Positions 35,359-38,139 of a stretch of DNA of 64,000 nucleotides are shown one piece after another. Location: positions 26,164,001 through 26,228,000 of the forward strand of contig OX597815.1 in the NCBI GenBank assembly GCA_951406725.2. Direction: 5' to 3'. The notes below the pieces were generated by a model, which had not been told where the DNA came from, ran no database searches, and worked only from the letters and a program-made list of their open reading frames with translations. The position numbers were made by a program, and so were the translations under genes. Source of the stretch: Octopus vulgaris. Its lineage: Eukaryota. The first letter of the stretch is position 1. Every line of letters begins with the position of its first letter.

Positions 35359-35401
<43 letters not shown>

Positions 35402-35589
35402 TAAGCAATAAAGGGTTTAGCAACGAATTGCCTTACCACAGACCGAATTTAGAAATAGTAGTCAAAGAGTTATAGCTATTTCTTCTACTAAAAAGGGAGA
35501 TCTCAGTAAAAAACACAGCAATTGGAAGGCAGACACAAACAGGTAAGAGAGAATGAATTGACGGCAATCTATCATACAATTTTAAGTTA

Positions 35590-35689
35590 TCTACGGACGC
35601 ACGTTTCGAAATCAAGTTTTTAGGAAAGCATAAGAATTAAATATTAAATAATTCTACGTTACCCAAACTTCTTTTCTCTTCAGCGTAGA
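35590..35689 (-). ncRNA. Type I hammerhead ribozyme
   Basis: Stem I UCUACG/CGUAGA, core CUGAAGA, long stem II GAAA..UUUC, GAAAC-GUGC-GUC; predicted cleavage between 35596 and 35595. Confidence 0.88.
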
Positions 35690-36185
35690 ATACTATAATC
35701 ATAAGTGATTATATATTGAATTTTGAGATACTAGAAGGCACCAACTCAACTCAGTATCAGAGCGAGCTAGAATCCGCAACTAGTATCACCAAACTCAAAG
35801 TGTGAATGAAAGGATTGTGTCACCAGCCCCTTCCCACCCGCGTGTAGCCAAAACAAGATGCTATGGTCATCTACTGAGATAAAATATGGTTATCCGTAAT
35901 AATGAAGGGTGAAATTAATTAATTTGGAATAATTATCAATTACACCAAGTAGTCTTCGGCATGTAAAAGCCTCATTCGAGGAAAATTTAAGTAATACTAA
36001 GCAATAAAGGGTTTAGCAACGAATTGCCTTACCACAGACCGAATTTAGAAATAGCAGTCAAAGAGTTATAGCTATTTCTTCTACTAAAAAGGGAGATCTC
36101 AGTAAAAAACACAGCAATTGGAAGGCAGACACAAACAGGTAAGAGAGAATGAATTGACGGCAATCTATCATACAATTTTAAGTTA

Positions 36186-36285
36186 TCTACGGACGCACGT
36201 TTCGAAATCAAGTTTTTAGGAAAGCATAAGAATTAAATATTAAATAATTCTACGTTACCCAAACTTCTTTTCTCTTCAGCGTAGA
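36186..36285 (-). ncRNA. Type I hammerhead ribozyme (second tandem copy)
   Basis: Identical motif 596 bp away; predicted cleavage between 36192 and 36191. Confidence 0.88.
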
Positions 36286-36437
36286 ATACTATAATCATAA
36301 GTGATTATATATTGAATTTTGAGATACTAGAAGGCACCAACTCAACTCAGTATCAGAGCGAGCTAGAATCCGCAAGTATTTTATTTTTGCATTTAAATAT
36401 GTAATATGTACATCACTCTGAGCACGACATATGTACG

Positions 36438-36478
<41 letters not shown>

Positions 36479-36489
36479 AGTGTTCATAG

Positions 36490-37185
36490 TGCTTAGTATT
36501 ACTTAAATTTTCCTCGAATGAGGCTTTTACATGCCGAAGACTACTTGGTGTAATTGATAATTATTCCAAATTAATTAATTTCACCCTTCATTATTACGGA
36601 TAACCATATTTTATCTCAGTAGATGACCATAGCATCTTGTTTTGGCTACACGCGGGTGGGAAAGGGCTGGTGACACAATCCTTTCATTCACACTTTGAGT
36701 TTGGTGATACTAGTTGCGGATTCTAGCTCGCTCTGATACTGAGTTGAGTTGGTGCCTTCTAGTATCTCAAAATTCAATATATAATCACTTATGATTATAG
36801 TATTCTACGCTGAAGAGAAAAGAAGTTTGGGTAACGTAGAATTATTTAATATTTAATTCTTATGCTTTCCTAAAAACTTGATTTCGAAACGTGCGTCCGT
36901 AGATAACTTAAAATTGTATGATAGATTGCCGTCAATTCATTCTCTCTTACCTGTTTGTGTCTGCCTTCCAATTGCTGTGTTTTTTACTGAGATCTCCTTT
37001 TAGTAGAAGAAATAGCTATAACTCTTTGACTACTATTTCTAAATTCGGTCTGTGGTAAGGCAATTCGTTGCTAAACCCTTTATTGCTTAGTATTACTTAA
37101 ATTTTCCTCGAATGAGGCTTTTACATGCCGAAGACTACTTGGTGTAATTGATAATTATTCCAAATTAATTAATTTCACCCTTCAT

Positions 37186-37188
<3 letters not shown>
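36490..37188 (+). mobile_element. Retrozyme-like repeat, inverted arm, about 1.2 units (594-bp period)
   Basis: Reverse complement of the left array; 36490-36593 repeats from 37084; ends in (AT)n. Confidence 0.88.
36804..36903 (+). ncRNA. Type I hammerhead ribozyme (third copy)
   Basis: TCTACG CTGAAGA [36817-36885 hairpin] GAAAC GTGC GTC CGTAGA; predicted cleavage after C36897. Confidence 0.9.
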
Positions 37189-37226
<38 letters not shown>

Positions 37227-37250
37227 TGAGAGAAAAGGTATATGTATACG

Positions 37251-37317
<67 letters not shown>

Positions 37318-37321
<4 letters not shown>

Positions 37322-37463
37322 AACCAAAATTTTTGTGACGTTCTATGAAGAACGAATGCGGTTAAAATTATAGCAAATAATGAATAGAGCTTGACCAATT
37401 TCTGGCAATTATTTTTCGTATTTTTACATTTAAGTATGTAATCTGTACACCACTATGAACACT

Positions 37464-37496
<33 letters not shown>

Positions 37497-37893
37497 CGTA
37501 CATATGTAGTGCTCAAAGTGATGTACAGATTACATATTTAAATGCAAAAATAAAATTTAAGAAATAGAAGGGTTAATATATAGAAGTATTTAGACGGTTT
37601 CTGTTGCGCTCCTGCGACCGGGTGTTGAGGTTTATTGCTCGGATCCTCTACGGGTGATCGTGTGAATTTTCCGAGCCCCCCCCCCCCCACACTTTGTCAG
37701 CGCGGTTTTTTTTTCGTCATATTCCTTCAATATACGATGCCTTACACCTGTTACACATATTTTTTTCCATTTTTGCCACCTGGGCGCGGATCTATATATT
37801 AACCAATAGAAGTTGGTCAAGATCTATTCATTATTTGCTATACTCTTAACTGCATTCGTTCATCATAGAACGTCACAAAAACTGTGGTTACAC
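37318..37893. repeat. Foldback/MITE-like element with 86-bp inverted arms and an inner inverted repeat
   Basis: 37318-37403 vs 37808-37893 about 90% complementary; inner arms about 37421-37467 vs 37505-37550. Confidence 0.85.
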
Positions 37894-38139
37894 ATACACA
37901 CAACACACACGCACACGTACACACATACACACACACATGTTATGAACTAATCTCAAAGAAACTTCCCTTACATAGTATACAGACATACGGAGTGGTGAGT
38001 ACAGCAAATACCTCGCCATATCACGGTTCACCTAACACAGTTTATTATTTAAGCTTACGTCGATTCCTGCGTGATGTTGTTTTGCATTTATTATAAGATA
38101 AATATATACGAATTATAAAAATAATTTTTAAAATATGCA

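What the first reader, a model, noticed from the sequence alone, without database searches (positions are those of the whole stretch)
35398..37188. Twin-priming geometry shows the array came from one multimeric or circular RNA
Seen: the left antisense arm ends at ...TGCTTAGTA (35398, fused to (TA)n), and the right sense arm starts at the same phase, TGCTTAGTA (36490), ending in CATTAT fused to (AT)n. Known: an inverted 5' segment whose 3' end matches the start of the non-inverted segment is the L1 twin-priming signature. Inference: a single retrotransposition into a TA microsatellite using TA microhomology, copying at least 2.8 units through three uncleaved ribozymes, or rolling around a circle. 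It would be direct mechanistic evidence for how retrozymes integrate.
Basis: partly seen in the sequence, partly recalled or inferred. Interest (0 to 1): 0.75.

Follow-up and report, generated by a model that had tools for sequence, protein, structure and literature searches.

The report
Two-armed retrozyme insertion, not L1-style

Summary
The letters are as described, but a 114-nt spacer between the arms was missed; it copies flank DNA about 260 nt downstream. The 596-nt unit carries a type I hammerhead motif; 274 exact motif copies lie in G000. Of 100 loci mapped, 46 are head-to-head. The L1 twin-priming phase match occurs in 4 of 46 against 3.2 by chance, so it is no signature. The real rule differs: outer ends sit at two fixed sites about 100 nt apart, one per arm, in 32 of 46 (16.9 expected). 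That is the one-sided Penelope 'tail'; a coding Penelope-like family here follows it in 3 of 3 inverted copies. Arms share haplotypes (4 of 248 discordant, 30% when permuted), so one event from one template type is supported, as is copying across ribozyme sites. Circle versus multimer is open for this copy; cleavage, circles and the mobilising enzyme are untested. The scan noted this two-end rule before on other DNA.

The parts
35359..35400 (.). left (TA)n target, preceded by (CT)n; likely primer end for the left arm
35398..36375 (-). left arm, 978 nt, unit phases 225 to 10; outer end at site A (phases 4-16)
35590..35689 (-). type I hammerhead motif, outer copy of left arm (predicted cleavage at C 35596)
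36186..36285 (-). type I hammerhead motif, inner copy of left arm (predicted cleavage at C 36192)
36376..36489 (-). 114-nt spacer: inverted copy of downstream flank 37451-37556; 2 nt (TG) shared with the right arm, 2 unmatched nt (or a 3-nt skip plus 2 shared nt) at the left arm
36490..37188 (+). right arm, 699 nt, unit phases 1 to 105; outer end at site B (phases 105-121)
36804..36903 (+). type I hammerhead motif: 6-bp stem I, CUGAAGA core at 36810, long stem II closed by G-C, GAAA at 36886, 2-bp stem III with near-palindromic loop, predicted cleavage after 36897 (phase 408)
   Evidence: not found by Rfam at gathering score
37094..37188 (+). one-sided 'tail' between end sites A and B (95 nt), present only on the right arm
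37186..37233 (.). right (AT)n(AG)n target; likely primer end for the right arm
37451..37556 (+). donor of the spacer, the centre of an older flank palindrome

Best explanation
This is a copy of a young non-coding 596-nt hammerhead repeat (a non-LTR retrozyme) whose two head-to-head arms were likely reverse-transcribed by a borrowed Penelope-like enzyme from both ends of a cut (TA)n tract, one arm starting at fixed site A and the other at fixed site B about 100 nt further along the same RNA, and then likely joined on the chromosome by end-joining repair that copied in 114 nt of the local flank. Steps: (1) shown: tandem units, one hammerhead motif each, no long ORF, TA targets, dispersed young copies. 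(2) Shown as a pattern: outer ends at A or B, one of each per head-to-head locus; inner ends scattered. (3) Inferred from PMC11167929: A and B are two internal reverse-transcription start sites; both target strands are cut and extended. (4) Shown: both arms of a locus carry one haplotype; inferred: same RNA or sister RNAs, the arms copying overlapping stretches. (5) Shown: arms cross the predicted cleavage site without scar; inferred: the template is covalently continuous there, usually a unit-length circle at family level, though this copy has one unit that differs and may come from a mixed multimer. (6) Inferred: the two cDNA ends are joined by microhomology-type repair; in this copy one end copied the flank first.
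For: A+B pairing in 32 of 46 head-to-head loci, A+A 2, B+B 0; permutation mean 16.9, maximum 28 in 50,000. Single-orientation loci end at A in 41 of 54, B in 9. A coding RT+GIY-YIG family in the same genome inserts in (TA)n and shows short end + about 35-nt tailed end in 3 of 3 inverted copies, short end in 10 of 11 one-ended copies (14 of 17 fetched loci held the anchor). In vitro, a Penelope-type protein cuts and extends both strands, starts at two internal sites that bound the tail, and uses uncleaved RNA (PMC11167929). Arm haplotypes: 4 of 248 diagnostic comparisons discordant against 30% permuted. 0 of 146 outer ends and 2 of 146 inner ends (2.7 expected) lie at the cleavage site; 48 of 155 segments cross two or more sites, up to five. 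Rare variants: 25 present in all units of their locus, 6 in a subset, 112 in one unit only. Inner joints: 24 of 46 with 1-5 nt overlap, 10 blunt, 4 with 1-3 nt, 8 with 8 nt or more; 5 of those 8 match element sequence within 66 nt of the joint. 14 of 42 simple two-arm loci, this one included, have neither arm nested in the other, so a DNA fold-back cannot make them. Hammerhead: stem I is wholly different yet paired in a sister family (L188, L193).
Against: No coding element sharing sequence with the unit was found: 36 of 37 GIY-YIG loci gave no match and the one hit (L119) was a separate TA-flanked sister fragment; the 781-aa family scored 57 against shuffles of 58, and no hammerhead was seen in it by a regex scan. 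In vitro the start site did not differ between strands (PMC11167929), which does not predict a strict A+B split. 14 of 46 loci are not A+B. This locus carries a private variant (phase 545) in 2 of 3 units, which a pure monomer circle does not explain; of four two-armed subset cases two fit shared first-copied units (L059, L070) and two do not (L051, L063). Inner ends lie within 55 phases of each other in 17 of 46 (8.6 expected, p=0.003), unexplained. The spacer differs from its donor at 3 bases, more than the arms differ from each other, and could be a later repair at the palindrome centre. Flank capture is seen in 1 of 46 loci. No RNA, cleavage or circle was tested.
Confidence: 0.65

Rival explanations
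1. L1-type twin priming for this locus: the right arm was primed first at B, ran 699 nt and stopped at a second primer annealed at A one unit upstream, which then copied 978 nt further; 2.8 contiguous units.
For: Right inner end at phase 1-3 against left outer end at phase 8-10, a 5-10 nt duplication like 10 of 32 L1 cases. The unit order G-A-A at phase 545 is contiguous. L050 also has a B arm starting at phase 1.
Against: Family frequency is at chance: 4 of 46 within 10 nt (3.2 expected); directed tests 3 of 32 and 4 of 32 against 2.2. The second primer site is a fixed family end, not a random internal microhomology. The spacer shows the inner ends were processed.
Confidence: 0.15
2. Self-priming or fold-back builds a hairpin intermediate that is cut with a stagger at A and B and inserted whole (self-priming was proposed for head-to-head Penelope copies in PMC3846280).
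For: A staggered cut would give A+B by itself. Inner ends are close in a subset: 17 of 46 within 55 phases; 4 of 30 A+B loci within 30 nt in unwrapped position, 1.4 expected, p=0.04. 28 of 42 two-arm loci are nested.
Against: 14 of 42 are not nested, this locus among them; arm reach is uncorrelated (Spearman 0.11, n=30); here the joint holds DNA of this very locus, which a pre-made intermediate could not carry unless added later.
Confidence: 0.12
3. Two independent insertions, a later DNA inversion, or misassembly.
For: The flank holds older inverted duplications; the spacer/right-arm joint and the empty allele were not checked.
Against: Arms share a variant seen in almost no other unit (171 of 174 units carry the other base) and obey the A+B rule; 46 of 100 loci have the same build; a contig of run X2 crosses the arm/spacer joint.
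Confidence: 0.06

Closest known systems
Metazoan non-LTR retrozymes (PMC7229834, passages; bioRxiv 10.64898/2026.07.22.740005, parts 1-2 of 5)
   Same: Tandem non-coding units, one type I hammerhead motif per unit, GC 35%, dispersed dimers to multimers; target-primed copying of a circle was already proposed as a model; Penelope origin proposed.
   Different: 596-nt unit (150-450 bp in PMC7229834; 51-972 bp in the preprint); long stem II; the passages read do not describe head-to-head arms, two fixed ends or TA targeting for retrozymes. RNA circles are not shown here.
Insertions of endonuclease-bearing Penelope-like elements (PMC8557442, PMC3846280, passages; PMC11167929, parts 1-2 of 4)
   Same: Inverted 5'-truncated copy head-to-head, tail on only one end, (TA)n preference, two internal start sites, passage through uncleaved ribozyme.
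   Different: No ORF; tail about 95-110 nt rather than 30-40; no coding partner with shared sequence found; near-strict one-site-per-arm split, whereas no strand difference was seen in vitro.
L1 twin priming (PMC11702581, passages; original model recalled, not read)
   Same: Both target ends are extended, cDNAs meet head-to-head, inner joints show microhomology or inserts, rare flank-templated inserts (3 cases in that paper).
   Different: In L1 the second primer sits next to the end of the first cDNA and arms do not overlap; here both start points are fixed, inner ends are scattered and arms can overlap on the template; no poly(A).

Membership tests
non-LTR retrozyme | tandem units each with a type I hammerhead motif | tested here: met
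   core, stems I-III and G-C closing pair present in all three copies; stem I changes keep pairing in sister family
non-LTR retrozyme | no protein coding, no LTR/PBS/PPT layout | tested here: met
   six-frame translation of the unit shows only short frames; PBS/PPT not scanned separately
non-LTR retrozyme | dispersed mobile copies | tested here: met
   274 exact motif matches; 100 loci mapped, most 97-100% identical
non-LTR retrozyme | self-cleavage and circular RNA | not testable with these tools
   indirect only: seamless crossing of the site and 25 rare variants shared by all units
Penelope-type insertion | inverted 5'-truncated copy with tail on one end | tested here: met
   A+B in 32 of 46
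Penelope-type insertion | AT-rich / (TA)n target | tested here: met
   flanks printed for all loci; a few exceptions such as L065, L150
Penelope-like element (autonomous) | RT + GIY-YIG ORF | tested here: not met
   none in the unit or the window
Penelope-derived (shared pLTR with a coding element) | sequence shared with a coding element | tested here: inconclusive
   none in 37 GIY-YIG loci out of 148 listed from 6136 candidates; Hydra and Poseidon types may be missed by this profile
L1-type twin priming | inner start of one arm within about 10 nt of outer end of the other | tested here: not met
   met by this locus but 4 of 46 in the family, 3.2 by chance
L1-type twin priming | second primer at variable internal microhomology; target-site duplication | tested here: not met
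   both ends are fixed sites; duplications cannot be read in (TA)n

The most novel reading that the evidence does not exclude
A Penelope-type enzyme pair primes the two strands of a cut (TA)n tract at two different fixed sites of one unit-length RNA circle, each copy runs round the circle past the other's start, and host end-joining seals the two cDNA ends in place; the flank piece trapped between these arms is a direct record that the head-to-head joint is made on the chromosome and not in a free intermediate.
Probability: 0.35. Interest if true: 0.7.

Novelty: new member of a known kind. Interest (0 to 1): 0.42.

Why it matters
How Penelope-like elements make their head-to-head copies and one-sided tails is called undefined in PMC8557442, and how retrozymes integrate is only a model in PMC7229834. 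This family gives countable predictions: one start site per DNA strand, overlapping copies of one template, sealing on the chromosome. They can be tested with the existing in vitro system (PMC11167929). The finding also corrects a tempting misreading: a single-locus phase match is not an L1 twin-priming signature.

Tried and rejected
Rfam at gathering score found nothing in the window; unconstrained folding of the ribozyme region is weak (z -1.56) and misses the core, the constrained hammerhead fold costs about 2 kcal/mol more. Search for the coding partner led nowhere: GIY-YIG loci, a sister-family search (25 of 43 matches fetched, none with a frame over 241 aa), a gapped ribozyme pattern (5 matches, none beside a Penelope-type ORF). 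RNA-editing idea rejected for this family: A>G 25 against T>C 34 of 189 variant alleles, p=1.0 (97 loci, 3 indel-rich copies dropped). Cleaved linear monomer as template rejected: no pile-up of ends at phase 408/409. No stable fold stood out around sites A and B (-34.3 against -31.1, sd 3.8, single-base shuffles). The empty allele could not be tested: contigs do not span the microsatellites; X1, X9, X17, X3 and X4 show no arm/spacer joint, which proves nothing. Look-up of earlier notes by sequence was blank. Rows dropped before counts: L033 (duplicate of L032 cut by an N gap); three small TA-split pieces of L056; L088 counted as single; arms under 20 nt are invisible to the mapping (L074, L142 appear to have such).

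Full report
Observation. The window shows (CT)n(TA)n, an antisense arm 35398-36375, a 114-nt spacer 36376-36489, a sense arm 36490-37188 and (AT)n(AG)n. With phase 1 set at 36490, the unit is 596 nt (594 in the right arm through a homopolymer difference). The left arm covers phases 225 to 10 (978 nt), the right arm 1 to 105 (699 nt). The spacer was not mentioned: it is the reverse complement of 37451-37556 with 3 substitutions and an 8-nt TA-length difference, and a genome search returned only the spacer, this donor and the other half of the same flank palindrome. A contig of run X2 at single-copy depth crosses the arm/spacer joint (30 letters on the arm side, 50 on the spacer side). A low-depth (3.9) contig of run X9 holds the flank version of the same 48 letters with 1 difference where the window's donor has 2, so part of the spacer/donor difference may be allelic.

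The unit. Each unit has a type I hammerhead motif: 6-bp stem I, CUGAAGA, long stem II closed by G-C, GAAA, 2-bp stem III whose 8 letters can pair fully with a second copy (-8.8 kcal/mol), predicted cleavage after 36897, phase 408. Short palindromic helix III and dimeric action are typical of metazoan type I motifs (PMC4209133, passages). A sister family (76-84% alike over phases about 490-115) has a wholly different but paired stem I. Rfam does not detect it. No long frame exists in the unit. Activity is untested.

Family census. The motif has 274 exact matches in G000. I fetched 101 loci: the 40 best full-unit candidates of 1882, 38 more from the first 100 listed motif places and 23 more from the first 100 of 121 places of a variant pattern; one duplicate was dropped. 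All had to contain the ribozyme region, which biases against short copies. Of 100 loci, 46 are head-to-head and 54 single-orientation.

Test of the twin-priming claim. In L1, the inner breakpoints lie 1-10 bp apart on the RNA in 32 of 32 inversions (PMC11702581, passages). Here the start of one arm lies within 10 phases of the outer end of the other in 4 of 46 loci (3.21 expected with uniform inner ends, p=0.40), 3 of 45 without this locus, and within 20 in 7 of 46 (6.1 expected). The upper bound for an excess is about 15%. The match at this locus is therefore not evidence of that mechanism, though it cannot be excluded for this one copy.

What the family does show. Outer ends cluster at A (phases 4-16; 85 of 146 ends, 54 at phase 10) and B (phases 94-121; 44 of 146), about 200 and 300 nt downstream of the cleavage site; none lies at the cleavage site. 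In head-to-head loci one arm ends at A and the other at B in 32 of 46; A+A occurs twice, B+B never; permutation gives 16.9 (maximum 28 of 50,000). This locus is A+B. The published Penelope footprint is an inverted 5'-truncated copy with a tail on one end only (PMC8557442, PMC3846280, passages), and in vitro the tail is the stretch between two internal start sites, with both strands cut and extended and uncleaved RNA as main substrate (PMC11167929, parts 1-2 of 4). A young 781-aa RT + GIY-YIG family in G000 lands in (TA)n with the same split in 3 of 3 inverted copies, but shares no detectable sequence with the unit, so the mobilising enzyme is not identified.

One template. Arms of a locus agree at 244 of 248 diagnostic comparisons (30% discordance when permuted), and many loci share private variants across arms. 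That supports one event from one RNA or sister RNAs. Of rare variants in multi-unit loci, 25 are in all units, 6 in a subset and 112 in one unit. Variants fixed in all units are most simply explained by a unit-length intermediate copied repeatedly, and the scar-free crossing of phase 408/409 (48 of 155 segments cross two or more sites) fits a covalent circle; this is inference. This locus is one of the six subset cases: phase 545 is A in the left outer and the right unit, G in the left inner unit. With adjacent start sites the template need span only 1.8 units.

The joint. Inner joints show 1-5 nt overlap (24), blunt ends (10), 1-3 nt (4) or longer inserts (8 of 46); five long inserts match element sequence within 66 nt, one is an iterated short repeat, one is unresolved, and this one copies the flank. 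Such joints resemble polymerase-theta-type end joining (recalled; PMC12426944 seen only as a search listing). 14 of 42 simple two-arm loci, including this one, cannot be DNA fold-backs because neither arm is nested in the other. Because the spacer is DNA of this locus, the joint was likely made, or remade, on the chromosome. Against a clean reading: palindrome centres can be repaired later (recalled), the spacer is more diverged from its donor than the arms are from each other, and inner ends are close to one another more often than chance (17 of 46, p=0.003), which I do not explain.

Novelty. The element is a new member of the non-LTR retrozymes with a Penelope-type footprint; the parts of the mechanism are published separately (PMC7229834 passages; bioRxiv 10.64898/2026.07.22.740005 parts 1-2 of 5). 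My searches listed no paper on a one-site-per-arm rule or flank capture in retrozyme insertions; the library lacks most subscription papers and I read no supplements. The scan's own notes report the same two-end rule for several other families in this and other genomes; I had stated my reading before seeing them and they are not independent support. What this locus adds is the negative test of L1-type geometry and the trapped flank piece. Interest 0.42.

Noticed in passing
window 37571-37804: High-copy element with about 14-nt terminal inverted repeats and an 8-nt target duplication (37563-37570, 37805-37812), hAT-like by that length (recalled); the loose end of a run X9 contig suggests an allele without it.
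   Followed up: partly
window 37285-37927: Older flank palindrome (arms 80-88% alike) centred on (CA)n(TA)n and split by the element above; the spacer donor is its centre.
   Followed up: partly
L155-L171 (e.g. L166:2439-4784): Young coding Penelope-like family, 781-aa open frame with RT, CxxC linker and GIY-YIG, many intact copies, (TA)n targets, about 35-nt one-sided tail, no hammerhead seen by regex.
   Followed up: partly
L172-L196: Older sister family sharing the A/B region at 76-84% with its own hammerhead (L188, L191, L193); its short arms end near phase 592, its long arms near 105-114; L174 holds three TA-separated tail copies.
   Followed up: partly
L133: Two A>G changes on opposite sides of hammerhead stem I, in all units of the locus, both giving G-U pairs; no family-wide A>G excess.
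   Followed up: partly
L056:1618-1778: Three 27-37-nt pieces of the tail region in alternating orientation, separated by (TA)n, beside the B end: possibly repeated abortive priming.
   Followed up: no
L032 and L033 (G000 C2, 8 kb apart): Same insertion and flanks twice, one cut by an N gap: likely an assembly duplicate.
   Followed up: no
L141 (near 3430) and L167 (near 1599), minus strand: Two unrelated type I hammerhead motifs of other families.
   Followed up: no
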